Notes under the pieces: model-generated
The model's input: the letters and a program-made list of their open reading frames with translations, nothing else
Database searches by the model: none
What the model was told of the DNA's origin: nothing
In this document: piece by piece, positions 33,783-60,225 of the stretch
Layout of the letters: every line of letters starts with the position of its first letter
Position numbering within the stretch: position 1 is the stretch's first letter
Position numbers and translations under genes: made by a program
Assembly: GCA_030603495.1 (NCBI GenBank)
Contig: JAUVXR010000001.1
Coordinates: 4,993 to 68,992 of the forward strand
Source: a bacterium
GTDB taxonomy: Bacteria > Armatimonadota > Zipacnadia > Zipacnadales > Zipacnadaceae
Direction of reading: 5' to 3'
Length of the DNA: 64,000 nt

Positions 33783-35457
33783 CCACATCCCAGCTAGCCT
33801 TCCAGGCCTCGCCTTCGCCTGGCAAGTCCACACCCTCTAATGCTCCCGCTATTTCTGGTTGCATCACCTTGTGGTCTGTGCTCGTGCTGTTCCCGAAGTC
33901 AGGGTGCCCGTCGAATACTTGGGCAAATGTCGTCCACCAGGCCCTGGTTGCTTTGTTAAGTTCCCGGAGCCAATCTCCAGGCTCTTTCTCACCGTTAGCT
34001 TGCTGGATACTCCATACGCTATTGCTTAGAGCTTTGGTGGTGACAGGATCTGTTACGGGTTGGCCCTCTGCTTCTAATGAACTCTTAACCTTATCACTTG
34101 CATGGGCGGCATTTACCTTTTGCAAAACCTGGTCGGTGGCTTCCTTGACTTGTTTGTAAGCCAGGCCTACACATTTGCGGATCATGTACGGCGCTTCCTC
34201 GGTTTGCCGTCCAGATTCCCTGGCTGTCTGCCACTGCCTGCGGAGCTCTTTTGGAGTAGGCTGATTTGATTTGCTTGCTTCCCTGCTTTCAACGTAGGGC
34301 AGATAACACGGAATCCCTACTTGGCTAAGGGGCTGCGTCCGCTCTATGAAACCATCTGCCGCTCCTACGAGGGTTGCTTCATCGTCTGTGTCCCACATGT
34401 TCAAAGCGTCAGACAATACTCCCAGCCACTCTATCCGACACTGATTCTCGAATTCGGCGCATTCCACCATAAACTCAAATGATCTATCAATCGCCAGATA
34501 GTTAAGGAATATTGCTGCACGGCGTTCTGTGAGCTCGATTTCTTCCGAACCAGTTCGTTGGCGCCAGAATCGTTCAGCGGCCTCCAGGTATGTGTCTACA
34601 AGGCGCTCTATCACGATACGGGGGCCCCACAGTTCTTGATCTGATGCAAACGCAGTCGTCACTGCGTCCTCGTCTTGGAATGCCGAGCGCATCCTGTTGC
34701 CATTTTGTGTCCAGCCACCAATTGGCGCCGCCGCCAGAATCGGTACTCTCCGCCTGATGGTCGAGCTCTGCGGTACAAACGGGATCGGGCCATAGCAGTA
34801 CGGCGAGACAGCAATGCTACTCTTATAGCTCATCGCGTAGCGCTCTAAGTCTTTAAACAGATTGGCAAGCGTCTTGTAAGCCAGCGAACGGGTGATTCCT
34901 TCTTGTAGGCAATTGAAGCGCATCTGTAGCAGTCTCAGTGTGTAGTTGATTAGGGCCAGGTCCCTAGCTACCTGAGCCGCTGCTAACGTGTCCACGACTT
35001 CGAATTCTACCGCACGATGGGCTTTGTCCTGGCCTTTGAACTTGAGTACCAACCTGGCTAGACCGGAAGATAAGCTCTCTTCAGCTATCTCCCCAGGAAG
35101 ATACAGACGGACGCGATACCTCTTTTTTGTGCTCTCATCATGAATAACGCCATTCTGTGGTGAAATCATGCCGTGATCAAGCAGTATGTCTAAGCAGCGA
35201 CTAATCCCATGTGCAGATACGGTGCCCGCCAGGACTTGCTGCAACTGAGTAAATGAAATACCTTTTCTCGAGTTTCTCTCATCAATGAACTGTCGGGCGG
35301 TTCTGATCTTGGAGAAACTTAGCTCTGACTCGTCATCCGGCCTTTTCTCACGCTGCCCAACATGTTCATAAATAGCACAGGCAACGAAAATCTCTTCAGA
35401 AAACATCTGTGTAGGCTTCACTTGCTCAAATACGAAATCGCCGACTGGTGTGTCCAC
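33742..35457 (-). CDS. hypothetical protein (571 aa) with an N-terminal winged-helix-like segment; last gene of the pyr/PRTase operon
   Basis: Its start overlaps the stop of the upstream PRTase gene by 1 nt (35457). The N-terminus has ISFTQLQQVLAGTVSAHGISRCLDILLDHGMI (wHTH-like). The remainder is unassigned. Confidence 0.55.
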   Translation of the reverse strand: MDTPVGDFVFEQVKPTQMFSEEIFVACAIYEHVGQREKRPDDESELSFSKIRTARQFIDERNSRKGISFTQLQQVLAGTVSAHGISRCLDILLDHGMISPQNGVIHDESTKKRYRVRLYLPGEIAEESLSSGLARLVLKFKGQDKAHRAVEFEVVDTLAAAQVARDLALINYTLRLLQMRFNCLQEGITRSLAYKTLANLFKDLERYAMSYKSSIAVSPYCYGPIPFVPQSSTIRRRVPILAAAPIGGWTQNGNRMRSAFQDEDAVTTAFASDQELWGPRIVIERLVDTYLEAAERFWRQRTGSEEIELTERRAAIFLNYLAIDRSFEFMVECAEFENQCRIEWLGVLSDALNMWDTDDEATLVGAADGFIERTQPLSQVGIPCYLPYVESREASKSNQPTPKELRRQWQTARESGRQTEEAPYMIRKCVGLAYKQVKEATDQVLQKVNAAHASDKVKSSLEAEGQPVTDPVTTKALSNSVWSIQQANGEKEPGDWLRELNKATRAWWTTFAQVFDGHPDFGNSTSTDHKVMQPEIAGALEGVDLPGEGEAWKASWDVVIRSSSEIDECFR

Positions 35458-36476
35458 TATGCCTCACCTACCAGTTCTATGGTTCTATCAACTACGCTGA
35501 CCACTTCGTCCTGTAACAGGAAGTAACAGCAGCGCACAATCCGTTCATTGAAGCCTTGAAGTGCGACATTCATCCCTTCTTGTCTCAGTTCTGGGAGTGC
35601 TCTTCTAAGAAAACGGACCCCAAGCTGCAGGGATAGGTTGAAGTTGGCGCAATCCTGGCACAGTTCTGCCGAAGTAATTCCCCTAAAACGGTCCATGAAA
35701 GCGCAGAATCTCACAGCAGGTGTTTCGCCAAAACACAGATTCGCTCGCGGCTCTTCTACCTCTTCCCGATAGAATGCCATCGGTACACAATGAATCTTCC
35801 CATCCCCCTCGACGTACAGACGGATCTTGACAACACCCTCTGGCACAAAATGGGACGGGGCCGCAATGCTCGCCGATATAGACTCGTTTGGAAACAGAGA
35901 TGTATGGAGGACCCCTTCGTGAACTTGCCTAGCGGCGTAGTGCTCCAGCGTCCCAAACTCTCTCAGAGCCTGCCAAAACCGCTCAACTTCCAAGTTATCG
36001 CAACCGAGTTGTAAAACGACATGATCGTAGTCCAGGGGAAGACATGTCTCGTGGAGCAGTTCATTGAGGTCCGCTATCAGCAGCTGATAATCTCGCCCCC
36101 GAGGAATCTTCCAATAGCTCTTAGCGTAGTGGTCTGGAAGCAAGTGCAGTGGGACGTCTTCCCGGACCGCCAGCACAGCGACTTCGACCTTGGCGCCAAC
36201 ATTCTCCAGGAATGCCTTGGCCAAAGCTATCTGTCTGCCTGTTGCTATGGCGTCGTCCAGCACGACTATTTTCTTTCCTGCAAGTCCCCACCATGGATAG
36301 TAAAGGATCTTGTCACACACAATAACCTTTTCAATGATTTGTGCCTCATCACCCACTGCGATGCGCAACAGTGCGAGGCCCTTCCGTCCCACAGCAAATA
36401 TGTGGTCAAAGTCCTTTCTCAGGACCAAATCAATGAACTGCTGTATTTCATGTTCGAGCTCGCCGAATGCCTTCAT
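35457..36476 (-). CDS. phosphoribosyltransferase (PRTase type I fold) domain protein with Cys-rich C-terminal domain (339 aa); paralog of the C-terminal half of 46734-48614
   Basis: The PRPP-binding loop is GKKIVVLDDAIATGRQIA (compare canonical VLLVDDVxTTGxT). The C-terminal domain carries C-x5-C ... C-x2-C. Aligned blocks with the 626-aa protein: FDHIFAVGRKGLALL~CDYVVAIARKGARLL, GKKIVVLDDAIATG~GKKVLLFDDTVSTG, VVKIRLYVEGDGKIHCVPMAFY~ACKIRVYVDVGGCLSIVPIIF. Its start overlaps the stop of the upstream CN-hydrolase-like gene (ATGA). Confidence 0.7.
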   Translation of the reverse strand: MKAFGELEHEIQQFIDLVLRKDFDHIFAVGRKGLALLRIAVGDEAQIIEKVIVCDKILYYPWWGLAGKKIVVLDDAIATGRQIALAKAFLENVGAKVEVAVLAVREDVPLHLLPDHYAKSYWKIPRGRDYQLLIADLNELLHETCLPLDYDHVVLQLGCDNLEVERFWQALREFGTLEHYAARQVHEGVLHTSLFPNESISASIAAPSHFVPEGVVKIRLYVEGDGKIHCVPMAFYREEVEEPRANLCFGETPAVRFCAFMDRFRGITSAELCQDCANFNLSLQLGVRFLRRALPELRQEGMNVALQGFNERIVRCCYFLLQDEVVSVVDRTIELVGEA

Positions 36477-38191
36477 TGTTTGCTCCTGATACCAACGGCC
36501 CGAACTCGCCCTATCTTGTCTGGAAACTCTTCTACAAAAACCTGCACTATTGCCTCTGTCTCCGTCAATCCAGCCTCTTTTTTCCTTGCTATCCGGGCGA
36601 TGACTTCTTCCTCAGAGCACTTCTGTAGCAATTCCCTTCGACATCGAGTCACCGACCAATCGTCTCTTTTACTCAAATCATGCTTGTCCACATACTGCCT
36701 TCGCACAGACGTGTGGTTGACTTCCCTCTGGCGTTCTTTACACCACCCTATTCTGTCTGCCAGGCTCCGGTAGTCCGCGTGTTCCGGGCCGATTTCATCC
36801 GCGATTAGTGTCAAATACTTACTGAATTCGGACAGTTTGACGTACTGAAGCTCTTCCAATGTCTCGCCTGTCAGCGTTATCGCCCATGTGCGCACAAACC
36901 TATCCCATGTCGATAGGTTCACATATTCCTCATTGGAGAATACAGAGCGCAGCCGGGACACCAGGACCTCGTTTCCAAGATATCGGGAAAAGAATGTATG
37001 AGCTTCTCGGCTGGCATACAACGCCATCCGTTCATCACTAAACCCGTGGGCCAACAGGTCGCCCAGCAAAGTCCGGTAAGTGATTTCCCTGCCGAACTTG
37101 TCCGGTATCGTCTCTGAGTCGTAGTGCACAGGAATGAGAGCCACGGGACTGGTGGGCACGGGCTTTGGGACAAGCCCAAGAGTCCGATCGAGGTTCTGTC
37201 GTTCTGGTCTCGGGTCAACGTCCACTACTAGCATACCCTCGAATCCTGGGTCGAGGGGCCCATACATAGTGCCCTGACATCTCTCGTCGGTCAGCTGCTT
37301 GGTGTCGTACCAGGCTATGAGTGTGCTGCATCCAAACTCTGCATTATTGGCGAAAACTACTGGCTTTTGCCATTTTTTGATGCTTATATCAAACATATCC
37401 CAGAATTCTTGTCCTGTCTTGACCCGCTCATCGCTGCTTGGCTTGGAGATTGGAGTTGAAGCAACCACCACGTGGAGTGGAAACTCCGGGCTCGAGTATT
37501 CGGCGCAGTCTGGCGGATGCTCATTGCACAGGAAGACAACTGTTTTGTACGCTCCTACCTGACATTTGAAGTGAAAGGGGCCCTTTCCTTTCTTCATGAC
37601 GCGGGTTTCATACTGACTAGCATCTCTCTTGCCTCTAATGGCAGTATCGCCATCTGGTAAGAAGACCGGGCATAGGTTCTGCCGACGGTACTCCTCTTCG
37701 TCAATGGCAATACCTGCCTTCTCATAAGCGCCGTTTCTGATATCCTTGGCTCTGACATAGTGGGATCCCGCTATAATAGTCATTGGAGCTGCACGTGCCT
37801 TGCTCGCCGTATCCTGAAGACATCGGGCAGGTACGGAGAGTTCTGGGAAAACTACGAGATCGCAGCGCAAAAGTTTGCTCAAATCCAACACTTCTTGTAC
37901 TCGTTCTGCAACCCAGTCTATGTGACTGTTCTCCACAACTTGTTGAGAGTCTGTCACCGCCTGTTCTACCTCTTCGTCCTGCAGGCCCCTGGCCCAGCAT
38001 GTAATCGAGGAAGTTGGGGCCTTCCGCAGATTTTCCCAGCTATCCACCTCGCGGAGGGGATCAATGTAGCTTCCGGGTTCCTCCTCCACAGGAATCCATG
38101 GGATTGACCTAAGCTGAGCAATCGCTACCCTGAGGTGGTTCTTTGATGGCTTTGCTAGTGGTTCCAAGCTTCCCGAATTCGCGTGCATCAT
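36473..38191 (-). CDS. carbon-nitrogen hydrolase (nitrilase-superfamily)-like N-terminal domain protein with large C-terminal extension (572 aa); tentative
   Basis: Begins HLRVAIAQL. A Glu motif is present in DLVVFPELSVP. A candidate Lys follows, with a candidate Cys in TVVFLCNEHPPD, in E-K-C order and spacing like nitrilase-fold enzymes. It is paralogous to 43975-45900 (VFPELSVPARC ~ ILPELAAPQEC). The C-terminal roughly 300 aa are unassigned. Confidence 0.45.
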   Translation of the reverse strand: MMHANSGSLEPLAKPSKNHLRVAIAQLRSIPWIPVEEEPGSYIDPLREVDSWENLRKAPTSSITCWARGLQDEEVEQAVTDSQQVVENSHIDWVAERVQEVLDLSKLLRCDLVVFPELSVPARCLQDTASKARAAPMTIIAGSHYVRAKDIRNGAYEKAGIAIDEEEYRRQNLCPVFLPDGDTAIRGKRDASQYETRVMKKGKGPFHFKCQVGAYKTVVFLCNEHPPDCAEYSSPEFPLHVVVASTPISKPSSDERVKTGQEFWDMFDISIKKWQKPVVFANNAEFGCSTLIAWYDTKQLTDERCQGTMYGPLDPGFEGMLVVDVDPRPERQNLDRTLGLVPKPVPTSPVALIPVHYDSETIPDKFGREITYRTLLGDLLAHGFSDERMALYASREAHTFFSRYLGNEVLVSRLRSVFSNEEYVNLSTWDRFVRTWAITLTGETLEELQYVKLSEFSKYLTLIADEIGPEHADYRSLADRIGWCKERQREVNHTSVRRQYVDKHDLSKRDDWSVTRCRRELLQKCSEEEVIARIARKKEAGLTETEAIVQVFVEEFPDKIGRVRAVGIRSKQ

Positions 38192-38265
38192 AGATGCACC
38201 CCCATATTATGGCACTGATGATTCAATCTTGGACTTTGGGAACTCCGCGTGTGAAAGTGGCTCAG

Positions 38266-38931
38266 TTATGGGTGAAAGCTGTAACCCCCGTCTTTGTGCC
38301 AGGTCTCAGGGTCCGCAAGGTAGGCCCTGATCGATTTGTGCTCCTCTTGTGTCAAGTACCCGCCACTCATGCCGAGAGTCAGGCACGTCTCCAAGTCTGA
38401 TAGTCCGTGGAGTTGCACCCCAGCCTGCTGCAAGCGTCCAAGTCCGCCCTGCTGTCTATCGAATATGACGAGGCAGTCCGTCACTGAGCACTCGGCACCC
38501 CGAATTCCTTCGATAAAGGTGATTTTGCTCCCCCCATCAGTAATCAAGTCCTCACACAGTAGAACCGTTTTCCCTGATGGCAAGTGACCCTCTATTTGCG
38601 CCCCGACTCCGTGGCCTTTGGGCTCCTTTCGGACGTACACCATAGGCTTCCCAAGCCGGTCAGCTAGCCATGCAGCATATGGGATACCGGCAGTCTCTCC
38701 CCCTGCTATGTAGTCTGCCTCGATTCCAACGTCTTCGTAGAGCCAGTGAGAACATCCAGTCACGATGCCGCGTGCCCACGGGTACGAAATCAGAACTCGG
38801 CAGTCTACATAAATTGGGCTCAGGTTGCCAGAGACAAGCCTGAAAGGCTCCTCGACTGAGACCTTGACTGCGGAAGTCTCCCACAGAAGACTTGAAATGG
38901 TGTCTCTAACCTGCTCTCTCACCGCTGTCAC
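38266..38931 (-). CDS. pyrE: orotate phosphoribosyltransferase-like (PyrE family)
   Basis: FRLVSGNLSPIYVDCRVL matches the OPRTase N-terminal hood. The PRPP loop is GKTVLLCEDLITDGGSKI followed by IFDRQQGG, closely matching E. coli PyrE (GKRVMLVDDVITAGTAI ... LDRQERG). It overlaps the upstream pyrF-like gene by 26 nt. Confidence 0.7.
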   Translation of the reverse strand: MTAVREQVRDTISSLLWETSAVKVSVEEPFRLVSGNLSPIYVDCRVLISYPWARGIVTGCSHWLYEDVGIEADYIAGGETAGIPYAAWLADRLGKPMVYVRKEPKGHGVGAQIEGHLPSGKTVLLCEDLITDGGSKITFIEGIRGAECSVTDCLVIFDRQQGGLGRLQQAGVQLHGLSDLETCLTLGMSGGYLTQEEHKSIRAYLADPETWHKDGGYSFHP

Positions 38932-39673
38932 CTTCCGTTTCGAAATGCAATGCTATTTGGCAGAATGCTCCCGCGGCTTGGGTAACGTCGGCTGCCTTGT
39001 AGATACCGGAGCCGATTATGGCATACGCGGGGTGTCCCAATGTTGCGGCAAACGCCGTCTCGATATCGCCGCCCTGTCTTCCTATTCCCGGCAACAAGAA
39101 GCGAGGTGTTTGTATGGCCCCGCCAATCAACTTGGCATATTTCTCTACTGCACCAGGCCGGTTGCCAGGGACAACGAAATGAGTGACTCCTATATCAGCC
39201 GCAACTTTATACATTCGGGCAGGGGCATCATCACTGAGGTACCCGCCGTCCTTCGACAAGTACCGAGGATGAGTCATCTCTCCGCCTACGATAGCTATCA
39301 TGCCCTGTCCGATAATAGCGCGAAGCAGCGCCTCTTCTGTTTCTGGTCCTGCCTGAGGAAATACGATCGCGGCTGCGACTCCTGCCTCCTGCCAAACGCG
39401 CGTGAACTCTTCCGCAAGTTGAGGTATATCCGTGCCGGCCTTTTGATGATCATAGAGAATTGGCAGATTGGACTGCTCCTTTATTGCTCCAACAACATTG
39501 GCAAGTCCATATGTTAGACCCAGAATAGCACCTACCTTGTACCCTACTATCCCATTGACGGTGCTTGTAGCTCCCACGAGCTTCGCGAGTTCGTCTAGGG
39601 TCTCCACGTCGCAAGCAGGAATGATTCCGTAGTCTCTCTCAAAGAGCCTTTCTTCGTTGTGTATTGCCTTCAT
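38906..39673 (-). CDS. pyrF: orotidine-5'-phosphate decarboxylase family protein (divergent PyrF-like)
   Basis: ILYDHQKAGTDIP aligns to the D-x-K-x-x-D-I-P catalytic loop but with one extra residue in each spacer. LLPGIGRQGGD matches the PGIGAQGG phosphate-binding loop. The 255-aa length is typical. Divergence from the canonical motif is noted. Confidence 0.55.
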   Translation of the reverse strand: MKAIHNEERLFERDYGIIPACDVETLDELAKLVGATSTVNGIVGYKVGAILGLTYGLANVVGAIKEQSNLPILYDHQKAGTDIPQLAEEFTRVWQEAGVAAAIVFPQAGPETEEALLRAIIGQGMIAIVGGEMTHPRYLSKDGGYLSDDAPARMYKVAADIGVTHFVVPGNRPGAVEKYAKLIGGAIQTPRFLLPGIGRQGGDIETAFAATLGHPAYAIIGSGIYKAADVTQAAGAFCQIALHFETEGDSGERAG

Positions 39674-40209: not shown

Positions 40210-43200
40210 TCACCGCACCTCTTCCACCTGCGTGCCGCGGTCGCTGCCACCCCATGTCAATCGGTACGCTCGAAACCGTACGACGTCATCCCGGTTCAGA
40301 CACGAGAACTTGGCTCGTGCCAGATGGAACAGCTCACTCCGGCCCGTGGTCACAATTATCTGCATGCGTTCAGCAAGGACTCTCAACAAGTCCAGCAGTC
40401 CGTAAATATTGAGTTCGTCCATCGCCTGCACAGGGTCGTCCAGTATGGCGAGTCTTAGTTGTCCTTCACGAGAAAGCGCCCCCGCCAAGAATGCTGAAAG
40501 TGCGATCAGATTCTGCTGCGCCTCGTTCATATAGGCCTGCACCAGCTTGCGATCGCTAACCGACTGGGATGTGGCTCCTCGCCTGGACAAAGCCCAGAAC
40601 CGGAGGCCGCTCTCATCGACAGTCCAGCTTATGTCGTCAAATACGGGATGGCGTGCGAGTCTTCGATGAATGGTTCTCATTAGATCTCTCAGCGGCTCGA
40701 GTCCCTCTCGAACCAGCCGAGCTTGCTCGCGCTCCACAAGGCGACCGCATTCTTTACCGGCATGTTCCCACCGCTTGTTCTCGGATATCTTCGCATCTGT
40801 CTCCTCTATTCTACGCTCGAGGTTGGCCATTTGTCCGTTAAGCTCTGCAAGCTGTCGCCGTGCCGATCTGACCTCGATAAACGCCAGAGCGGCACGACCC
40901 TCACGAATCAGATCTTCAATATGAGTAAGTTCTCGGCGAAGATCGTCTACTGAGCCGGCCTCTTCCTTGTCGGCTTGGGCGGCCGTTCCTTGTAGCACTC
41001 GCAGGTCGCTTTCGATTATTGTCGCGAAGTCACGCGTTTGCTGAAGTGCAGCACGGGCCGAACTTGCGGCCTCCCGAGCTGGTGCCAGGGCCGCTAATTC
41101 GTGTTCCAGCTGCTCAACCATCTTTGCCTTCTTCTTCTCCACTTCAACGGCACGATCAGCATGAGCTTGTTCCTCAGTCTGTATCTGCTCTACTTGCTGG
41201 CCCAATTCAGCCTCATCGGCTGATGGGTGCCACGCGGCGGCCTCGAGCCGCTCTCGCGCCTGCTCCATGTCTTCCGCCAGCGGTACCCGCTGGGCCCGCA
41301 ACTCACGGAGCTCACTTTGTATGGCTTCGCGATGCTCGGTCGCTCTATGAAGGCCTTCCCCCAACTCGAATGTCTGCGCTTGGAGCCGCTGCTCCTCTAT
41401 GTGTACCAGTTCAAGGGCCTTTAGCCATTCCTTCTGCTCGCGTGCGACATCCGCCGCCGTCGTATCAGGCGGGAGATCACAACCGGCCAGGGCTTTCACC
41501 CGCTCATCCTTACGCCGAGTTAGTCTCTCGAGTTGAGACTCGAGCTCCCTCTTCCTAGTCTCGGCTACGCGTAGGGCTGCCTCGGACTTCTCAAGACGCT
41601 GTCCCGCTTCGGCAAGATTTTCCCGCGCCTCGTCCCGACGCTGAGCCAAATCGCTCTCTTCTCTCGTAGGGGCGCCAATCTGCCGGTCTATCGCTGCCAA
41701 CAGGCCCTCTCGGCTAGGCCATTTGTGCGAACACAGTGGGCACTCGTTGCTGTCAGCGCCCTCCTGAAGCTCCCGCAGAATCTGAGCCCGGCGCTCCCGA
41801 CCGGACCGTACTTCAGCAAGCGCACGCTCAAGATTCTCAAGACGTATGGCCTGGCAGTCTCTTTCTTGCCTGTTTGCCAACACTTCTTCTGTGGCTGCAT
41901 AGACAGCGTGCTCTGCACGATCGTCCTCGGTAACTGCGCCCGCGTAACGCTCTTCCCTCTGGCCGTCAGCCTCCATTAGGCTGCGAAGCTTCGACAGCTT
42001 CTCAACCCGCGAGCTTGCTTCTTCGTGACGACGCTTCGCCTCTTCGACCACCGGCCGCAATGAGAATAGGCCCTCATTTGCTTCCCCTATATTGGCGCTT
42101 AGTTCCGCGCTTCGCCCCTCAAACACACCAATCTGGTCCGACATCTCGGCAAGACGCTTGCCACGTCGCGCCACCAACGGTCTTTCCCGAAGCCACCATT
42201 CGATCGCTTCCCGCCGCTGCGTACATTGCGCGCTTCTCTCTGCAATGCTCTTCAGAGAGTTCTCCAGTACGACGAGCGCTTCACGTAGTTCGCTTTCCCT
42301 TTCCGCCGCGTTCTTGCTCCGGCACTCAGCCGCTGATAGCTTCTCGGTCTCTTTATCGATCTCAGAGCGTACTGATTCAAGCTGTTGGCGAAGTTCCTCC
42401 AAATGAATCGTTCGGTTTATGGTCTCCTGCACGCTTCGACGCTGCATGTCTAGGTGCTCGGTCACCTGCTCAACAACCGCTGCAAGAGACTGATCGTCAG
42501 TAGGCCTCTCGTCGAGAATGCCATGAATACCCGCTGGCCTATGATATTCGGTGGTGCCTCGCAAAAACTCCTCCGGTTCACCTACAGCGTCAACACCCGC
42601 GCCAGCTTTCTCTACCAACACCGCCTCCGAACGTTGTTGGTCTCTCAGGCCGGCCATCTGCTGGTCGAGCGACTCTTTTTCCTTCTGCAGGCCTGCCTCC
42701 GTCTTGGAGAGTTCCTGTACGATGGATTCCAACTTCCTTGTTGTCCGTGCCAGCCCGCGGTCCCCCAGCAGACTCGCGAAGTGAGCCAAACGCGCCTTCG
42801 GGTCCTTCGTCGAGAGCAGTTGTTTCATCTGGCCCTGTCCCAGAAACAACCGCGCGCTGCATCGCGCGCGCAGTTCAGCTTCTCGTTCGTACGTTTCAGG
42901 GGCCACACCGAGCCACTGCCGCCAAAGTGCGCGTTCATCGAGCGGCGCCTCTTCGTCGAACTGCCGGCGCCCCGCCTCTTCCTCGACACAGTGAAACATC
43001 TGGCCAGCGGCAGCACGGAGCGTAACGTCAGCCGCTTGATCCTGCATGAACAGATTCCGTAGTGGTGAGTCGGTTGTCTCCGGCATCGCCTCGGTCGCCA
43101 CCTGATCCGCGAGCTCGACCACGGCCCCGCAGATCGCCCACTCCAAGGCTTGAACGAAGCTAGTCTTTCCTGTGGCATTCTCACCGTATAGCAGTGTAAT

Positions 43201-43974
43201 GTCCGAGGACAAGTCCACCCGGACCGGACTTGCTCCATCACCTACACGGAACGACCGGAAATTGTGCAATGTGAGATCCTGCAATCGAACCCCGGACCCC
43301 GAGCGTCGGGACAGCTTCTGCCTCCGCGCATCGCCTTCACCCCCTACCAGCTCCTGGTCAAGGTCCACAGTAGACTGGATCGTCGGAGCCCTTCCGTACG
43401 CACCTCGCATAATCTCCTGTGCAATCTGGTGCACGCCAGGCCGTGTACCTGCCAAACCGTCGGCCAGCTCGGCAGGTACTCCAGCCTCGCGCAGGAGCCT
43501 CGCCACTGCTGTCTTGCTAGACTCGGCAATAGGGGCCGACTGCGCAAGGGGCACAAAGGTAAGGTCCCCGAGTTGATCTGGCCACTCGGCACCATCATAA
43601 CTCACAACCTCCTTCATGCACTCGCTTCGAGAAGTCCTGATTCTGTGAAGGAGCGCTTCGCGCATGTCCAACGGCACACTGTCGAGCGATCTGACATCGA
43701 CCAGAAAGAGTAGGTAGGCGTCTGGCCCGATACCCCCGCGCAAATGCCATTGACGCACGATCGATCCTAGCTCATGCTGCGCCTCTTGCCATCTCTTGCT
43801 CAAGCGGTCCCACGTCTCGCAACATTGGATCCCGAGCACGCCGCAAGGGAAGCTGTACACTGCCTCTAATTCGTCCGTCTCCACCGTTGACTCCCTATGC
43901 AGTTTCAGATCAAGACCGCTCAAGCGTCGCTCGACTTGCGCAAGCAAATCATCGCGATGCAACCGTACTGTCAT
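40210..43974 (-). CDS. SMC/SbcC/RecF-like ABC ATPase with long coiled coils and a roughly 230-aa N-terminal extension (1254 aa)
   Basis: Walker A is ITLLYGENATGKTSFVQALEWAICG, at about residue 250. About 800 aa of E/R/L/A/Q-rich coiled coil follow. The C-terminal D-loop/Walker B is LAILDDPVQAMDELN. Its start codon is adjacent to the stop of the upstream 641-aa gene (43974/43975). Confidence 0.75.
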   Translation of the reverse strand: MTVRLHRDDLLAQVERRLSGLDLKLHRESTVETDELEAVYSFPCGVLGIQCCETWDRLSKRWQEAQHELGSIVRQWHLRGGIGPDAYLLFLVDVRSLDSVPLDMREALLHRIRTSRSECMKEVVSYDGAEWPDQLGDLTFVPLAQSAPIAESSKTAVARLLREAGVPAELADGLAGTRPGVHQIAQEIMRGAYGRAPTIQSTVDLDQELVGGEGDARRQKLSRRSGSGVRLQDLTLHNFRSFRVGDGASPVRVDLSSDITLLYGENATGKTSFVQALEWAICGAVVELADQVATEAMPETTDSPLRNLFMQDQAADVTLRAAAGQMFHCVEEEAGRRQFDEEAPLDERALWRQWLGVAPETYEREAELRARCSARLFLGQGQMKQLLSTKDPKARLAHFASLLGDRGLARTTRKLESIVQELSKTEAGLQKEKESLDQQMAGLRDQQRSEAVLVEKAGAGVDAVGEPEEFLRGTTEYHRPAGIHGILDERPTDDQSLAAVVEQVTEHLDMQRRSVQETINRTIHLEELRQQLESVRSEIDKETEKLSAAECRSKNAAERESELREALVVLENSLKSIAERSAQCTQRREAIEWWLRERPLVARRGKRLAEMSDQIGVFEGRSAELSANIGEANEGLFSLRPVVEEAKRRHEEASSRVEKLSKLRSLMEADGQREERYAGAVTEDDRAEHAVYAATEEVLANRQERDCQAIRLENLERALAEVRSGRERRAQILRELQEGADSNECPLCSHKWPSREGLLAAIDRQIGAPTREESDLAQRRDEARENLAEAGQRLEKSEAALRVAETRKRELESQLERLTRRKDERVKALAGCDLPPDTTAADVAREQKEWLKALELVHIEEQRLQAQTFELGEGLHRATEHREAIQSELRELRAQRVPLAEDMEQARERLEAAAWHPSADEAELGQQVEQIQTEEQAHADRAVEVEKKKAKMVEQLEHELAALAPAREAASSARAALQQTRDFATIIESDLRVLQGTAAQADKEEAGSVDDLRRELTHIEDLIREGRAALAFIEVRSARRQLAELNGQMANLERRIEETDAKISENKRWEHAGKECGRLVEREQARLVREGLEPLRDLMRTIHRRLARHPVFDDISWTVDESGLRFWALSRRGATSQSVSDRKLVQAYMNEAQQNLIALSAFLAGALSREGQLRLAILDDPVQAMDELNIYGLLDLLRVLAERMQIIVTTGRSELFHLARAKFSCLNRDDVVRFRAYRLTWGGSDRGTQVEEVR

Positions 43975-45900
43975 TTACTCGTCACCTCCCCGCGCCAGGC
44001 CCGGCACCTGTGCCAGGACGTGCCGCAGGCCCTCTCCTATAGCGCAAAGATCGTCTGCTCCATCCTCAAGCACGCAGTCCTCGATCGCCTGGATCGGTAT
44101 AAGCAGCAACGTAGCACGAGTTATATCTAGGTCATCCAAATCCTCACTGATAGGATAGGTCGATGCGCTCGGTCCTGTCAACCCTCCTAACGGTATGGCC
44201 TGGACCTCTAACTGTCCCCTCACACCGCATATGAGGTATATGTCCCCATCCTTCGCGTCCGAGCTAGCGTCCTCCACAACCCGTGCAGGAATATCGGACG
44301 ATAGCAAGTCACACCCATCGCGAGAATGTATCGACGGCCCGTTCTTTTCAAGCCGAACCGCCGCCCGTCTCCCCGTCGTACCTGAAATAGAAGCGGCTTG
44401 AAGGGGGAACCATGCATGTACCATTGTAAGTCCTGCAACAAGATGGCGAAGCCGATCTACATGGGTTGAATCCCAGGTGTCGGGTTGGGGCTTCAGATCA
44501 TCCGGCCAAAAAACGAAGGCTTCCTGCCCCAACATCTGCAGGCACTCGCCATTGATCCCCCAGCAGACTCGTCTCAGTTCTTCGTAGCTATTTCTCAGAC
44601 GCTGATAGAGCTGCTCCTGCACGGGACTCTGTTGAGACGGCTCCAGAAGATCCGTTCCGGTACTCGACCGCAGTTCGCATGGAAAGCCTCGCCAAGCCGC
44701 AAAGCGATATGCTTCGGGCACTGCCGCAGCGTCGCTAGTAAAGTCAACTCGGCCGTCAGACGGACGGATGCCTAGCCAAAGCCCCCCGGTAACAGGCTGA
44801 ATTCCGGCCGCGCCAAAGGGCCCCGGCGTCCGTGAGGGGAGCCGCGCTTTGACTAAGAATGCTGATGCCCGGCGAGGTCTGAAGTCATAGCGAACGATGC
44901 TCTCACCGCGTCTACAACAACACTCAGGCGGGTCCTTCGCGTATCTACGATGCCCGCCAACCAATATGCCGGTGCAACCGTACTCGTCACGTTCCTCGCA
45001 AATTGCTGCGGCGTTGACCCTCACGACACTTGCACCCGAAACGGCCGCGCCCACCGCTTGTGGCGAATCCACAAGTAGCCGATAGAAGCCTGCCGCCATG
45101 AGTTCATGGTCAGGCTTTTGGTTATGCTGAATGTGGATGATCGCATCAAGCGTCCTGGGTGGCTCATCCCCCTGGAAATGCTCCACGATGCCCTGCGCCA
45201 CTGAGCACCCGCCGTCAGCCCCAGGTGCGTCCACGTTGAGCATGTCCGAGCAGATGGTGAAAGCGAAGGACGCCTGGTCAATCACCAGAATGTGGACGGT
45301 TTCGCCAGCACAGAGCGATTCCCGTTCTTGAGCACTCGGGCTGATCTTTCTCTGGAAGACTACGCCTGGTTCGCCATGCCGATCCCGCCAAGCGATCAGC
45401 ATTGCGTTGACCCAGCTAGCGCTCGGGGATGCACGTGCCGCCATACGCCTGAGCTCTTCGTTCTGCCATTCTTGATCCGTCGCATAATCTTGCACAAATT
45501 GCTCATATTCTTCCCGGCTCAGGCGCTCGATACCTGATACGACAAGCATGCCCGGATCCGTCTGCGCCTCCGCGACTGCCTCCAACAGCCCTCTCACGCA
45601 TTCCTGCGGAGCCGCTAATTCGGGCAGGATTGCGGCATGAAGAGGCTGGAAATTCGCCGACACGCGTTCCTCCGGGTTAAGGACCAACTCGATGACTGAG
45701 TCGACGACTTGCTTCTGGTTGTCTCTCGAGTCACCCTCGATACGGCCCACTTCATCGCCGCTCTGAACAACAGCATAAAGAGGCTGTACAAGCAGGAAGT
45801 TAAGGTCTCCAGCAGGATTCCAGCCCAGATCTACTGTGTTAGTCCTCGGTTCCATGTCAAACCTCGCCCTGCGGACACGCGCGGTATGTCGCCTTGCCAC
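43975..45900 (-). CDS. CN-hydrolase (nitrilase-superfamily)-like protein, paralog of 36473-38191 (641 aa); tentative
   Basis: Shares HAAILPELAAPQECVRG with VFPELSVPARCLQD and TVHILVIDQASFAFTICSDML with TVVFLCNEHPPD of the 572-aa protein. It is co-oriented and contiguous with the SMC-like gene. Confidence 0.4.
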   Translation of the reverse strand: MARRHTARVRRARFDMEPRTNTVDLGWNPAGDLNFLLVQPLYAVVQSGDEVGRIEGDSRDNQKQVVDSVIELVLNPEERVSANFQPLHAAILPELAAPQECVRGLLEAVAEAQTDPGMLVVSGIERLSREEYEQFVQDYATDQEWQNEELRRMAARASPSASWVNAMLIAWRDRHGEPGVVFQRKISPSAQERESLCAGETVHILVIDQASFAFTICSDMLNVDAPGADGGCSVAQGIVEHFQGDEPPRTLDAIIHIQHNQKPDHELMAAGFYRLLVDSPQAVGAAVSGASVVRVNAAAICEERDEYGCTGILVGGHRRYAKDPPECCCRRGESIVRYDFRPRRASAFLVKARLPSRTPGPFGAAGIQPVTGGLWLGIRPSDGRVDFTSDAAAVPEAYRFAAWRGFPCELRSSTGTDLLEPSQQSPVQEQLYQRLRNSYEELRRVCWGINGECLQMLGQEAFVFWPDDLKPQPDTWDSTHVDRLRHLVAGLTMVHAWFPLQAASISGTTGRRAAVRLEKNGPSIHSRDGCDLLSSDIPARVVEDASSDAKDGDIYLICGVRGQLEVQAIPLGGLTGPSASTYPISEDLDDLDITRATLLLIPIQAIEDCVLEDGADDLCAIGEGLRHVLAQVPGLARGGDE

Positions 45901-46733
45901 CTTACCTGGCAGGCCCAGTCCAGAGCGCCTCCTCCGCCCCTGCCATACCGTCCATAGTCAGCCGTCGATCCGCCCTGCGTTCTCTTCTCCTCCTCTGTAC
46001 GCCCTTCTCATAACCCCCGTCGGTGACATCCACGTCCTGACACGCGCCGGTATTGCGTCCGTTAGCTCGCATACGTTCCTTGGAGTCTTCTCTCAGCCAC
46101 AACTTGGCCCTATTTCTCCTCTCTGTCAACCTTCGCGCCCGACTGCTGCAAAGCTTCCTTCACCTTCATCTTCAGCGTCTAGTTGCCAATATTGTTTTCC
46201 TCGACGCTTACACCAGCGCAGTCTCGGCCCCTCGCACCACAAAGACACACCTCTCGATGGACCTCTCACTCGGCACGCTGAACAGTCTGGAGACAGTATC
46301 GCGCACGGTGCCTTCTTTAGGTCGCTGAGTTGATATTGAGAATACCACGGATGGCGAACTTTGACAAGAATACGCGATTCTGCACACAGCAGGCCTTAGT
46401 ATGCGATGCGGAGACCCTAGCCCAAAACCAATCCCAGGGGCAGCGTCAGTATTTACAGTTCGCGGCCCAAAAAGCATGGTAAGGTAATCACCAGAAAGAA
46501 CTCAGGCAGGAAGGCGTAGCCAAGCAGCAGGAGACGCAGGTATTATCGTAGCAACGGCGAAAAGAAGACCGTGTATCGACACAGCGCACTTGACTATCGA
46601 CCACCAGCAGCAGTGGTGGCCTGGCCATGGCTGCAGGACCCCCGGCCCTCGTAGACGTCTACGGGACACAGCTCGCCCAGTGACAGCTAACTGAGGGGAT
46701 CCAACTACCATTGCTCCACGACCCTGCAGTTCT

Positions 46734-49165: not shown

Positions 49166-49750
49166 TCAGCCACTTGGAAGGTGATCCGCAGCGAGGTGCA
49201 TCACTTCGCCCTCTCCGGTACCGTGCAGCCCTGTTAGCCCTGTTGGCAGCTGACTATCGTGCGCTGTTCTCCGAAGCTCGTCAAGCGCAGCGAGCTGAGC
49301 CGCCTCGTTTGCGAGACCGACGATCTCTCCCAGCCGCCGCCCAGAGTAGAGCTGTTGCTCCCCAGGGGGAAGGGATATAACGTACTGCCGGATCTCCTCG
49401 GGTAGACGGAGCAGACTCATAACCTGCGTAACCCTGGCTCTGCTCAACTTGTACCTTCGCGCAATCGCCGCTCGATTGTTAACCACTTCGGCCTCCAAGA
49501 GTTCCTGAAACTCATAGGCAAGTAGCAGAGGATGCCTGTAAGCACTGCCTTGAGATTCCTCAATGTCGGGTTTTGCCCGTCGTTTCAGGCTTTCTGGGCA
49601 AAATGTAAACCGCTCGAAAAAGTTCCTGCAGTTGTCCGCCCCGGGGAGCCAAGAGAGGACAACAGGGGGGACTGTAGCCGCCTGTTCAGCGGTGTCCCCT
49701 TTGTTTTCCGATGGCCCAAGCTTACTCGCCGGCTGCCAACACAGGATCAA
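49166..49750 (-). CDS. putative DNA-binding protein with ParB/KorB-like helix-turn-helix
   Basis: The segment RAAIARRYKLSRARVTQVMSLLRLPEEIRQYV resembles the ParB/Spo0J HTH. Its start overlaps the integrase stop (ATGA at 49747-49750). The true start may be internal or a non-ATG codon. Confidence 0.45.
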   Translation of the reverse strand: MILCWQPASKLGPSENKGDTAEQAATVPPVVLSWLPGADNCRNFFERFTFCPESLKRRAKPDIEESQGSAYRHPLLLAYEFQELLEAEVVNNRAAIARRYKLSRARVTQVMSLLRLPEEIRQYVISLPPGEQQLYSGRRLGEIVGLANEAAQLAALDELRRTAHDSQLPTGLTGLHGTGEGEVMHLAADHLPSG

Positions 49751-50673
49751 ACTGCTCTTGAAGCTGCGCTCTCGGCAGATAGCGGATGCGCCGTGATTGC
49801 CTCACGCAGTTGCTGTGCGCCCACATGCAAGTAGATGGCCGTCGTATCCAGCCGGCTGTGGCCCAGCAGATGCTGGATGGAGACCAGATCAGCGTTACCA
49901 GTCTGCAGCAGAAGCGTCGCGAAAGAATGCCTCAACGTATGCATGCTCACGCCGGACCGGTTGATGCCACTCCGGTTGAGGGTGTTCTTCCAGATGATTT
50001 GCAGGCGGGTTGGGTAGATGCGGTTGCCGCGGTTCGTGGTAAACAGGTAATCATGTCTCTTCGTGCGGCGATACTCTAGCCAATCAGCAATCGCCTGGCT
50101 CAGCTCCTCGACCAGCGGAATGATGCGCGTCTTGTTCCCCTTCCCGCGCACAACACGCAGTGTCCGAGCGCTTAGATCAGCATCGCCCGTTTTCAAGCTG
50201 AGCAACTCGCCTCGCCGTAAGCCGGCGTAGATGAACGTGGCCAATATCGCATGGTCACGAAACGCGCAGTACTCAGTGCGCTGCTGCAGAGCCGCATCCA
50301 GTAGTTTCTGCAGGGATTCCTTGCTGAGATAGACGGGGAGGGTCTTCTCACGGCGCGGCATACTAATCTTTGCCATGACCCCTGGCGAGGCCAAGTCCCT
50401 CTCACACAGATACTTCCAGAAGCTCTTCAGCGAACAGACCCGGCGAGCTACACTGTTGCTGCACAGCCCGCGCTCGTACATCGCCACGATCCACGAGCGG
50501 ACCATTTCCACGGTGATCTCCGCAGGCTTATCTACCGCGTAGTTTTCTTGCAAATGTGTGAAGAATTGTGTCAGATCGGAGCGATAAGACGTGGCGGTAA
50601 GGCGGCTGCAGCCCCTCTCGGCCTGCAGGTAGAGCAGGAATTCCTGAGCGAGTGTGTCTATAATGCTTTGCAC
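49747..50673 (-). CDS. tyrosine recombinase (XerC/XerD-like integrase, 308 aa)
   Basis: SAM-like N-domain (LQAERGCSRLTATSYRSDLTQF). Catalytic region HTLRHSFATLLL ... LLGHSRLDTTAIYLHV. It ends about 170 nt from the 3' end of rnpB. Confidence 0.85.
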   Translation of the reverse strand: MQSIIDTLAQEFLLYLQAERGCSRLTATSYRSDLTQFFTHLQENYAVDKPAEITVEMVRSWIVAMYERGLCSNSVARRVCSLKSFWKYLCERDLASPGVMAKISMPRREKTLPVYLSKESLQKLLDAALQQRTEYCAFRDHAILATFIYAGLRRGELLSLKTGDADLSARTLRVVRGKGNKTRIIPLVEELSQAIADWLEYRRTKRHDYLFTTNRGNRIYPTRLQIIWKNTLNRSGINRSGVSMHTLRHSFATLLLQTGNADLVSIQHLLGHSRLDTTAIYLHVGAQQLREAITAHPLSAESAASRAV

Positions 50674-50839
50674 TTATGTGCACATCCTTTCTGTGCACCA
50701 GAAGCGCGAAGCCAACTAATCTGCGCTCAGGAGTTGCATTTTCCTGCCGGAATTCACTGCTTTGCCACAAGTGAGTACCATAAGAATGGTTATGTGCCGC
50801 TTTTCGCGCTCACTTGTGAACCTCCGGCCCCAATTTGTC

Positions 50840-58176: not shown

Positions 58177-58392
58177 GTATCGCTACATCTCGGAGGTCGG
58201 CCAGGGCGCAGACGATTTCCTCGGCCACGCACCCGAATACCTCGGCGGCGAGGCGGATGTGTGGTGGGCGATTAGATAGACCACGGACAATCAAAGGGGC
58301 ACAGGCTGGAAGCCTGTGCCACCGGTAAGGCATTCCCATTCCGAGGCCGCAGATCATTCTGCGGCCTCTTTGTTTGCCAAGGAGGTGAGCAG

Positions 58393-60210: not shown

Positions 60211-60225
60211 GCGAACGGCTGACGG

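What the first reader, a model, noticed from the sequence alone, without database searches (positions are those of the whole stretch)
40210..45900. Two-gene module: CN-hydrolase-like protein translationally coupled to a 1254-aa SMC/SbcC-like ATPase with a novel N-terminal domain
The start and stop codons are adjacent at 43974/43975. The upstream 641-aa protein is a paralog of the nitrilase-like protein in the pyr operon. The downstream protein has SbcC/RecF-type Walker A (GENATGKTSF) and D-loop (LDDPVQAMDE) separated by about 800 aa of coiled coil, plus an unassigned roughly 230-aa N-terminal domain. SMC-like ATPases partnered with a variable effector are the logic of Lamassu/DdmABC and related defence systems. 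A nitrilase-superfamily partner is not among the described effector types.
Basis: partly seen in the sequence, partly recalled or inferred. Interest (0 to 1): 0.7.

Follow-up and report, generated by a model that had tools for sequence, protein, structure and literature searches.

The report
Lamassu defence pair with nitrilase-type effector
These two overlapping genes are a rare, divergent copy of an already catalogued but untested kind of Lamassu anti-phage system: a DNA-sensing SMC-like ATPase, with its usual small partner protein apparently fused to its front end, is paired with a nitrilase-type (C-N hydrolase) killing enzyme whose target is unknown.

Summary

Two novelty claims fail. "C-N hydrolase" is already listed among LmuA effector domains in a 2023 review. 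The PADLOC LmuB model (1213 positions) already spans the N-terminal domain. That domain looks like a fused, divergent LmuC (Pfam MComp1, sub-threshold in 4 of 8 relatives) with a restriction-endonuclease-like fold and a conserved D...CxK motif.

LmuB has SbcC-length coiled coils, a CPLC zinc hook and an hhhhDD Walker B. No SbcD gene lies nearby. The pair sits in a defence island beside an integrase and rnpB.

Likely mechanism (inferred): DNA-end sensing releases LmuA, which oligomerises into an active amidase and aborts infection.

Verdict: a new member of a known, uncharacterised kind.

The parts
43975..45855 (-). lmuA: 626-aa effector protein. The longest ORF extends to a GTG at 45900 (641 aa). 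The likely start is the ATG at 45855.
   Evidence: ORF. The database copy P0001 is 626 aa and all homologues start here. GAGG lies 6 nt upstream. PADLOC LmuA PDLC03850 E 1.8e-14.
44761..45855 (-). Nitrilase-superfamily (C-N hydrolase) effector domain of LmuA, about aa 1-365 in 626-aa numbering. Candidate catalytic residues and their codons: E79 (45619-45621), K170 (45346-45348), E177 (45325-45327), C202 (45250-45252).
43978..44760 (-). LmuA C-terminal domain, about aa 366-626. It is a helical bundle plus a beta-sheet, with a low-confidence acidic loop (SEDLDDLD, 44125-44148). It is the presumed docking domain for LmuB.
   Evidence: AF2 secondary structure and pLDDT. No Pfam or PADLOC hit for this part. 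The layout agrees with the published description of long-Lamassu LmuA CTDs (PMC12663957). The docking role is inferred.
40210..43974 (-). lmuB: 1254-aa SMC/Rad50/SbcC-like ATPase with a fused N-terminal domain.
   Evidence: PADLOC LmuB PDLC03861 E 9.8e-62 and PDLC03865 E 1.9e-48. Pfam SMC_N and AAA_23. Homologues of 1239-1254 aa follow lmuA in relatives.
43375..43974 (-). LmuB N-terminal domain, aa 1-200. It is proposed to be a fused, divergent LmuC / ABC-3C middle component 1 with a restriction-endonuclease-like fold. Conserved residues: Q66, E68, D85 (GPDAYLLFL), C119 and K121 (SECMK).
42775..43290 (-). LmuB ATPase head, N-lobe (aa 229-400), with Walker A GENATGKT (43162-43185) and Q-loop LGQGQ (42829-42843).
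40705..42774 (-). LmuB coiled-coil arms (aa about 401-744 and 749-1090) around the CPLC zinc hook (41731-41742).
   Evidence: CPLC is invariant in alignments A3 and A7. NCBIfam and PADLOC SMC/Rad50 coiled-coil matches cover aa 500-1070. Arm boundaries are approximate.
40213..40704 (-). LmuB ATPase head, C-lobe (aa about 1091-1254), with a degenerate signature motif NEAQQN (40510-40527) and Walker B/D-loop LAILDDPVQAMDE (40414-40452).
   Evidence: The hhhhDD Walker B matches the long-Lamassu consensus reported in PMC12663957.
43972..43993 (-). Translational-coupling junction: a GGAGGTG ribosome-binding site inside the end of lmuA, then the TAA stop (43975-43977) abutting the lmuB ATG (43972-43974).
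   Evidence: Equivalent overlaps or 1-13 nt gaps occur in L001, L003, L004, L006, L009 and L011.
46339..46367 (-). Possible promoter of the lmuAB operon (TTGTCA, 17 nt spacer, TATTCT, with an extended -10 TG). It lies in the 880-nt non-coding gap upstream of lmuA. A terminator-like hairpin for the preceding gene is at 46568-46585.
   Evidence: Consensus scan only. This is weak evidence.

Best explanation
This is a two-gene Lamassu (ABC-3C) defence system of the C-N hydrolase ("amidase"/nitrilase) effector type.

**Components.**
- LmuA (626 aa) carries an N-terminal nitrilase-superfamily domain with an intact Glu-Lys-Glu-Cys catalytic tetrad, and a C-terminal docking domain.
- LmuB (1254 aa) is an SbcC-like ATPase with full-length coiled coils, a CPLC zinc hook and an hhhhDD Walker B.
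- The small middle component LmuC appears to have been fused to the front of LmuB as a restriction-endonuclease-fold domain (aa 1-200).

**Proposed mechanism (inferred by analogy with solved Cap4-type Lamassu complexes).**
1. A zinc-hook LmuB dimer holds one LmuA as an inactive monomer through its C-terminal domain.
2. The LmuB head, together with the fused LmuC-like domain, recognises DNA ends or replication intermediates of an invading phage or plasmid.
3. ATP hydrolysis releases LmuA.
4. Free LmuA self-associates. Nitrilase-superfamily enzymes generally need oligomerisation to be active, so this step switches on C-N bond hydrolysis of an essential cellular amide or amine compound, or of a protein.
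5. The infected cell stops growing or dies (abortive infection).

**Shown here:** gene pair, family membership, folds, catalytic and ATPase motifs, conserved synteny, island context.

**Inferred:** complex stoichiometry, trigger, release and oligomerisation, substrate, phenotype.
For: **Family calls.**
- LmuB PDLC03861 scores 9.8e-62 and LmuA PDLC03850 scores 1.8e-14.
- All 40 diverse LmuA relatives hit PDLC03850 (best 1.4e-175).
- Distant relatives hit both models strongly: L009 LmuB 1.5e-99, L012 LmuA 1.3e-51.

**Nitrilase fold and active site.**
- The AF2 model has pLDDT 88.9.
- E79, K170 and C202 are invariant. E177 is at least 90% conserved.

**Literature.**
- C-N hydrolase is a listed LmuA effector type (PMC10586767).
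- Long-type LmuB has a hhhhDD Walker B and a single CxxC hook (PMC12663957). Both are present here.
- Solved Lamassu complexes show LmuA sequestered as a monomer, DNA-end sensing, and release to an active oligomer.
- Nitrilases require homo-oligomeric assembly, and a nitrilase domain is the abortive-infection effector of DRT1 (PMC13275509).

**Synteny.** An lmuA of about 610 aa is followed by an overlapping lmuB of about 1250 aa, with no separate lmuC, in L001, L002, L004, L006, L009, L010, L011 and L012.

**N-domain as fused LmuC.** MComp1 hits occur in 4 of 8 relatives in one register.

**Context.** The pair lies next to an integrase at 49747-50673 and to defence-like neighbours: an OloB-like/PRTase fusion, a nitrilase-like/PRTase operon, and HerA-like and HATPase_c_3 proteins.
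Against: - No experiment exists for this subtype in anything I could read.
- The window's LmuA matches the catalogued LmuA model only over its effector domain and only at 1.8e-14. Its C-terminal domain matches no known CTD family.
- The LmuC assignment of the N-domain rests on sub-threshold Pfam hits in relatives. The best is 25.5 bits against a gathering score of 27.3. The window copy itself gives no hit.
- The N-domain model is of low confidence overall (pLDDT 54, built from 3 sequences).
- LmuB is much longer than either published Lamassu class (about 600 and about 800 aa). Mechanisms solved for short systems may not transfer.
- The substrate is unknown.
- No relatives were found in the phage, plasmid or IMG/VR collections.
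Confidence: 0.78

Rival explanations
1. It is a Lamassu system, but the killing activity is a nuclease in the N-terminal restriction-endonuclease-fold domain of LmuB. The nitrilase-like LmuA would then be a regulator, sensor or second effector rather than the sole effector.
For: - D85 and C119 are invariant, and K121 and E68 are in 7 of 8 sequences down to 18% identity. This forms an E...D...CxK pattern.
- From memory, this pattern resembles the E/D/SxK site of the EC869 CdiA-CT DNase.
Against: - The canonical second acidic residue is replaced by Cys.
- K121 is Asn in L004/L005, and E118 is not conserved in distant relatives.
- The structure model is low-confidence.
- The same region hits the non-enzymatic middle-component family MComp1.
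- The LmuA catalytic tetrad is strictly conserved, which argues for an active LmuA.
Confidence: 0.1
2. The module mainly restricts plasmids or competing mobile elements on behalf of the island that carries it, as DdmABC does in Vibrio cholerae. It would not act mainly as an anti-phage abortive-infection system.
For: - The pair lies in an integrase-bounded island next to rnpB and prophage genes.
- The Lamassu system DdmABC eliminates plasmids as well as phages.
Against: The sequence does not discriminate between the two roles. Tested Lamassu systems protect against phages.
Confidence: 0.08
3. It is a housekeeping SbcC-like DNA-repair ATPase that happens to lie beside a metabolic amidase or nitrilase.
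For: - LmuB has SbcC-like length once the N-domain is subtracted, a zinc hook and standard Walker motifs.
- One homologue is named "exonuclease SbcC" by JGI.
Against: - No SbcD/Metallophos gene was found among the ORFs scanned between 33.7 and 53.2 kb.
- No SbcC equivalog model hits at E<=1, whereas LmuB models reach 1e-62.
- Translational coupling to LmuA is conserved across distant taxa.
- The family is extremely sparse: 8 clusters at E<=1e-30 among 1.84 billion representatives. That is unlike a housekeeping gene.
- The LmuA domain gives no hit to any Pfam family, metabolic CN_hydrolase included.
Confidence: 0.03

Closest known systems
Lamassu / ABC-3C systems with a C-N hydrolase LmuA (PADLOC LmuA model PDLC03850 plus LmuB model PDLC03861). 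From memory, unverified here, this is the subtype called 'Lamassu-Amidase' in DefenseFinder and PADLOC.
   Same: - Same two-gene layout: an LmuA of about 600 aa with an N-terminal nitrilase-fold domain, then an overlapping LmuB of about 1250 aa whose first 200 aa form the extra domain.
- Same catalytic residues and the same zinc hook.
   Different: - The window's pair belongs to a small divergent clade. Only 8 cluster representatives score E<=1e-30, and identity to the bulk of the family is about 20%.
- The LmuA C-terminal domain is not matched by the catalogued model.
Long Lamassu (PMC12663957)
   Same: - hhhhDD Walker B, a single CxxC hook and SbcC-like ancestry.
- An LmuA C-terminal domain made of helices plus a beta-sheet.
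   Different: - LmuB is 1254 aa (about 1025 aa without the N-domain) against about 800 aa.
- There is no separate SbcD-CTD-like lmuC gene. A restriction-endonuclease-fold MC1-like domain is fused to LmuB instead.
- The nitrilase effector is not among those the paper names for long systems.
DdmABC / Lamassu Vc-Cap4 and type I BcLmuAB (solved structures)
   Same: The overall logic is shared: an SMC-like sensor dimer, an effector held by its C-terminal domain, DNA-end sensing, and effector activation by release and oligomerisation. This is assumed here, not shown.
   Different: - Those systems have short LmuB (about 600 aa), a deviant Walker B and a Cap4 nuclease effector.
- LmuC is a separate MC3 protein in DdmABC and is absent in type I.
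DRT1 (UG5 reverse transcriptase-nitrilase)
   Same: - A nitrilase-superfamily domain serves as the abortive-infection effector, is activated through oligomeric state, and has an unknown substrate.
- 10 of 40 LmuA relatives cross-hit the RT_UG5-nitrilase model.
   Different: - There is no reverse transcriptase and no DNA adduct.
- The sensor is an SMC-like ATPase encoded by a second gene.
SbcCD / Mre11-Rad50
   Same: ATPase head, long antiparallel coiled coil and a CxxC zinc hook. The published model derives Lamassu from SbcCD.
   Different: - No SbcD nuclease is present, and SbcC models give no hit.
- The partner is a C-N hydrolase.

Membership tests
Lamassu / ABC-3C defence systems | LmuB: SMC/Rad50-like ABC ATPase with Walker A and Walker B separated by a coiled coil | tested here: met
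   PADLOC LmuB 9.8e-62. Pfam SMC_N and AAA_23. Motifs at aa 264-271 and 1175-1187, and a CPLC hook at 745-748.
Lamassu / ABC-3C defence systems | LmuA encoded next to LmuB, with an N-terminal effector domain and a C-terminal docking domain | tested here: met
   PADLOC LmuA PDLC03850 1.8e-14 over aa 30-324. The model shows two domains. Adjacency is conserved in eight or more contigs. The docking function itself was not tested.
Lamassu / ABC-3C defence systems | LmuC / middle component (absent in some systems) | tested here: inconclusive
   There is no separate gene. The N-terminal 200 aa of LmuB is a candidate fused MC1. Pfam MComp1 is hit by 4 of 8 relatives (1.2e-5 to 0.3), all below the gathering score, and the window copy gives no hit.
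Lamassu / ABC-3C defence systems | Protection against phage or plasmid that depends on the ATPase and effector active sites | not testable with these tools
   This needs cloning and challenge assays. No published test of a C-N hydrolase Lamassu was found.
Long Lamassu (PMC12663957) | Walker B hhhhDD and a single CxxC zinc hook | tested here: met
   LAILDD at aa 1175-1180 and a single CPLC at 745-748. Criteria taken.
Long Lamassu (PMC12663957) | LmuB of about 800 aa with a separate long LmuC resembling the SbcD C-terminal domain | tested here: not met
Type I Lamassu (LmuA-Cap4 + LmuB) | Cap4 (DUF4297) nuclease effector and a short LmuB | tested here: not met
   LmuA has a nitrilase fold and no Cap4 or DUF4297 hit. 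LmuB is 1254 aa.
Nitrilase (C-N hydrolase) superfamily | Alpha-beta-beta-alpha sandwich fold | tested here: met
Nitrilase (C-N hydrolase) superfamily | Catalytic Glu-Lys-Cys triad, plus a second Glu | tested here: met
   E79, K170 and C202 are invariant and E177 is at least 90% conserved in 40 sequences at 14-40% identity. The motifs LPE, QRKIxPS and ICSD fit the family pattern. Spatial clustering in the model was not checked, because no coordinates were available.
Nitrilase (C-N hydrolase) superfamily | Match to Pfam CN_hydrolase at the gathering score | tested here: not met
   No Pfam hit at E<=1 for the window protein, and none at E<=0.01 for any of 40 relatives. A sequence-only PDB search gives only E 1.5-2 hits to Nta1, carbamoylase and formamidase. 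Membership rests on fold and motifs.
SbcCD DNA-repair nuclease | Adjacent SbcD (Mre11-type metallophosphatase) and an SbcC equivalog match | tested here: not met
   No Metallophos domain in any ORF scanned between 33.7 and 53.2 kb. NCBIfam gives no SbcC model at E<=1.
DRT1 / UG5 RT-nitrilase | Reverse-transcriptase domain fused to the nitrilase domain | tested here: not met
   No RT domain in either protein. Only domain-level cross-hits occur, in 10 of 40 relatives.

The most novel reading that the evidence does not exclude
The domain fused to the front of LmuB is not just a passive LmuC. It would be a restriction-endonuclease-fold module whose conserved E/D...D...CxK constellation binds metal and cuts or grips DNA ends.

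On this reading, the clade is a Lamassu whose sensor carries its own nuclease or DNA-end reader. The released nitrilase-type LmuA would hydrolyse a so-far unidentified essential amide after oligomerising. Candidates are NAD+ or another nucleotide cofactor, or Gln/Asn side chains or N-termini of proteins.

That would give a second, genetically simpler system in which to find the substrate of defence nitrilases. The 2026 DRT1 study leaves that question open.
Probability: 0.2. Interest if true: 0.7.

Novelty: new member of a known kind. Interest (0 to 1): 0.4.

Why it matters
Nitrilase-superfamily effectors are rare in anti-phage defence. Their substrate is unknown even for the structurally solved DRT1. 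A Lamassu with such an effector offers an independent two-gene system for asking what these enzymes destroy. It could also show whether Lamassu's activation by release and oligomerisation applies to an enzyme class that needs oligomers to work.

This clade also keeps SbcC-length coiled coils and a zinc hook, and seems to have LmuC fused onto LmuB. It may therefore document an intermediate, or an alternative route, in the proposed evolution of Lamassu from SbcCD.

The system type itself is already catalogued, however. The finding adds a divergent member and some anatomical detail rather than a new principle.

Tried and rejected
- **Word-indexed search, first 235 aa of LmuB.** It found nothing, not even the protein itself. 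This was a limit of the index and does not show absence: the full-length query then found 3 relatives.
- **Genome scan with the LmuB alignment.** It fell back on the Walker A pattern. It returned mostly unrelated ABC ATPases and one true relative, L012. The source organism of the window was therefore not identified.
- **Structure prediction with locus-derived N-domain sequences.** The N-domain model had to be built from 3 sequences and is weak.
- **Sequence-only searches of PDB.** Profiles of LmuA and of the N-domain gave nothing significant.
- **afdb50 fold library.** Unavailable.
- **Relatives in mobile-element collections.** None in plasmids, phages or IMG/VR.
- **The subtype name "Lamassu-Amidase".** I searched for it in papers and in the supplements of Millman 2022 and did not find it in the held text. 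The name is given from memory only. The equivalent statement, "C-N hydrolase" as an LmuA effector, was found in PMC10586767.
- **Krishnan et al. 2020 (ABC-3C).** Not held.
- **Attachment-site repeat of the rnpB end.** None of 13 nt or more was found elsewhere in the window.
- **Small ORFs upstream of lmuA in L003, L004 and L006.** I considered whether they could be a separate lmuC. They are C-terminal fragments of a type III methyltransferase and are absent from the window.
- **SbcCD reading.** Considered and rejected.

Full report
**1. Observation**

The minus strand carries ORF 40210..43974 (1254 aa, ATG) and ORF 43975..45900 (641 aa from a GTG). The upstream TAA (43977-43975) abuts the downstream ATG (43974), and GGAGGTG lies just before it.

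The 1254-aa protein has these motifs:
- Walker A GENATGKT at aa 264-271.
- Q-loop LGQGQ at aa 378-382.
- CPLC zinc hook at aa 745-748.
- Walker B/D-loop LAILDDPVQAMDE at aa 1175-1187.

The upstream protein most likely starts at M16 (ATG 45855, with GAGG 6 nt before it). The database copy is 626 aa and every homologue aligns from there. The sequence-level observation is confirmed.

**2. What the two proteins are**

Family searches:
- Pfam finds SMC_N and AAA_23 in the long protein and nothing in the other.
- PADLOC's defence-protein models call the long protein LmuB (PDLC03861 E 9.8e-62, PDLC03865 E 1.9e-48). They call the other protein LmuA (PDLC03850 E 1.8e-14, aa 30-324 against profile positions 18-311 of 604).
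- NCBIfam gives only weak Rad50/SMC coiled-coil matches and no SbcC equivalog.

An HMM search with five close LmuA homologues covered 1.84 billion cluster representatives. It found 8 hits at E<=1e-30 and 201 at E<=1e-3. Most are 550-650 aa and match only the first ~300 residues.

In an alignment of 40 of these (14-40% identity to the window protein), E79, K170 and C202 are invariant, in 626-aa numbering. N150, Q168, D204 and N245 are also invariant. E177 is present in at least 90%.

All 40 hit PADLOC LmuA PDLC03850 (best 1.4e-175). Ten also hit the RT_UG5-nitrilase model of DRT systems. None hits Pfam CN_hydrolase.

**3. Fold of LmuA**

- Formamidase, nitrilases, the glutaminase domains of NAD synthetase, and Lnt.

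The next fold scores 7.8.

The motifs LPE, QRKIxPS...E and ICSD, and the K-to-E (7 residues) and K-to-C (32 residues) spacings, fit the Glu-Lys-Glu-Cys tetrad of this superfamily. That comparison rests on my own knowledge of the family.

The C-terminal ~260 aa form a confident helical bundle plus beta-sheet, with a disordered acidic loop. This agrees with the published description of long-Lamassu LmuA C-terminal domains. It matches no family model.

The claimed paralogy to the 572-aa nitrilase-like ORF at 36473..38191 is only remote homology:
- BLASTP gives E 1.5.
- Profile-to-sequence hhalign gives 95.4% probability, E 1.9e-8, 16% identity, with the three catalytic motifs aligned.

**4. Conserved architecture**

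In every relative with enough flanking DNA, lmuA is followed immediately by a long SMC-like gene, with no small gene between:

| Locus | LmuA (aa) | LmuB (aa) | Note |
|---|---|---|---|
| L001 | 627 | 1252 | 4-nt overlap |
| L002 | 627 | 1249 | |
| L004 | 635 | >474 | LmuB cut by contig end |
| L006 | 617 | >1198 | LmuB cut by contig end |
| L009, L010 | 610 | 1254 | 20-nt overlap |
| L011 | 615 | >1117 | LmuB cut by contig end |
| L012 | ≤658 (longest ORF) | 1247 | Acidobacteriaceae MAG |

L009 to L012 belong to the distant part of the family (about 20% identity). The two-gene layout is therefore a property of the whole family.

L009's LmuB aligns to PADLOC LmuB PDLC03861 in one stretch, residues 8-1207 against profile positions 10-1192 of 1213, E 1.5e-99. 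The catalogued LmuB model thus already includes the N-terminal domain and the long coiled coil.

**5. The N-terminal domain of LmuB**

Residues 1-200 are better conserved than the coiled coil among close relatives. Across eight sequences down to 18% identity:
- Q66, D85 (in xDxxLxLL) and C119 are invariant.
- K121 is present in 7 of 8 sequences and is Asn in L004.
- E68 is present in 7 of 8 sequences.

The window's first 230 aa hit PDLC03861 positions 96-194 (E 2.4e-5).

Pfam MComp1 (PF20289, "ABC-3C system Middle Component 1") is hit by 4 of the 8 N-domains over the same core. The scores are L012 1.2e-5, L011 1.3e-4, L009 0.034 and L003 0.3. All are below the gathering score, and the window copy gives no hit.

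My reading is that the middle component (LmuC) has been fused to the N-terminus of LmuB in this family, and that it has a restriction-endonuclease-like fold. Whether it is catalytic is open. The canonical (D/E)xK is CxK here, and the Lys is lost in one lineage.

**6. Comparison with the literature**

The 2023 review of SMC-based immunity lists "C-N hydrolase" among the N-terminal effector domains of LmuA, citing Millman 2022 and Krishnan 2020. It also notes that LmuC is lacking in some systems (PMC10586767).

The 2025 PNAS study divides Lamassu into two classes:
- Short: LmuB of about 600 aa with a deviant Walker B.
- Long: LmuB of about 800 aa with an hhhhDD Walker B and a single CxxC.

It derives both from SbcCD, with long LmuC resembling the SbcD C-terminal domain.

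The present LmuB shares the long-type motifs. It differs in three ways:
- It is 1254 aa, or about 1025 aa without the N-domain, which is SbcC-sized.
- It has no separate LmuC.
- Its effector is not named among the long-type effectors there.

Cryo-EM work on Cap4-type systems shows one LmuA held as an inactive monomer on an LmuB dimer. It also shows DNA-end recognition by an LmuB head together with LmuC (or with the LmuA N-terminal domain in type I), and release of LmuA to form an active tetramer.

The 2026 DRT1 study reports four relevant points:
- A nitrilase domain can be an abortive-infection effector.
- Nitrilases need homo-oligomeric assembly for activity.
- Such domains are uncommon in defence.
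- The substrate is unknown.

**7. Mechanism proposed**

1. An LmuB dimer, joined at the zinc hook, sequesters monomeric and therefore inactive LmuA through its C-terminal domain.
2. The head, together with the fused LmuC-like domain, senses DNA ends or replication intermediates.
3. ATP hydrolysis frees LmuA. The Walker B here is the standard DD type, so turnover is plausible.
4. LmuA oligomerises into an active C-N hydrolase that destroys an essential amide-bearing molecule or deamidates proteins, aborting the infection.

Steps 1 to 4 are inferences by analogy. What is shown here is the gene pair, the folds, the motifs, family membership and conserved synteny.

**8. Context**

The pair sits in what looks like a defence island:
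- An integrase at 49747..50673 lies directly downstream of RNase P RNA at 50841..51347.
- A 626-aa protein combines an OloB-like part with a PRTase part.
- A five-gene operon at 33742..39673 holds an OMP-decarboxylase-like gene, PRTase genes and a nitrilase-like gene.
- A HerA-like ATPase, an HATPase_c_3 protein and prophage structural genes lie beyond these.
- No SbcD-like gene was found among the ORFs scanned between 33.7 and 53.2 kb.

The source organism could not be identified with the available scans.

**9. Verdict**

The system is a divergent member of an already catalogued, though apparently untested, Lamassu subtype.

What this analysis adds is:
- Firm fold evidence for the effector.
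- The likely LmuC-LmuB fusion with a restriction-endonuclease-like fold and a conserved D...CxK motif.
- The SbcC-length, zinc-hooked LmuB.

Interest is moderate (0.4). Novelty: a new member of a known kind.

Noticed in passing
window 33742-39673 (-): Five overlapping genes form an apparent operon:
- OMP-decarboxylase-like, 255 aa.
- PRTase, 221 aa.
- Nitrilase-like, 572 aa (PADLOC RT_UG5-nitrilase 1.3e-8; remote homologue of LmuA by hhalign).
- PRTase-like, 339 aa.
- A 571-aa protein with no family hit.

It looks like a nucleotide-centred candidate defence system rather than a housekeeping pyr operon.
   Followed up: partly
window 46734-48614 (-): This 626-aa protein has an N-terminus that hits PADLOC OloB (1.8e-8). 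Its middle resembles the 571-aa ORF (E 4e-4). Its C-terminal half resembles the 339-aa PRTase-like ORF (E 3e-21). It is in effect a fused version of the last two genes of the neighbouring operon.
   Followed up: partly
window 49747-51347 (-): Bacterial RNase P RNA class A lies at 50841-51347 (278 bits; 507 nt for a 367-position model). A tyrosine integrase at 49747-50673 follows directly downstream. This suggests that the defence island is integrated beside rnpB. No tRNA is present in the window, and no attachment repeat of 13 nt or more was found.
   Followed up: partly
window 55871-61485 (+): Phage portal and major-capsid genes are interleaved with glycosyltransferase genes, including a match to 'GT4-conflict' (PF20706) and a family-9 heptosyltransferase.
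   Followed up: no
window 51514-53190 (+) and 26554-28593 (-): A 558-aa HATPase_c_3 protein gives weak TmtA and type II REase hits. A 679-aa HerA/DUF87-type ATPase is also present. Both are further possible defence genes in the same region.
   Followed up: no
window 45856-46733: An unusually long (about 880 nt) non-coding gap lies upstream of lmuA. It has a terminator-like hairpin at 46568-46585 and a promoter-like site at 46339-46367. No Rfam family matches it.
   Followed up: partly
L003 11548-15282: In this relative the lmuB reading frame is broken. Residues 13-776 and 1005-1253 of the window LmuB align to two stretches in the same frame, separated by about 660 nt with no detectable similarity. 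It may be a disrupted copy or an assembly error.
   Followed up: partly
L003 9280-9618, L004 7561-7992, L006 6680-7069: In three related loci, a small ORF just upstream of lmuA matches the last ~160 positions of PADLOC's type III methyltransferase model (E down to 2e-49). This looks like a remnant or a detached C-terminal domain. It is absent from the window.
   Followed up: partly
relatives P0021, P0023, P0027 and others in alignment A2: The same nitrilase-like effector domain also occurs fused to other defence scaffolds: TPR/Avs1b-like, trypsin-like protease and HamA-like. It therefore appears to be a shuffled effector module and is not restricted to Lamassu.
   Followed up: no
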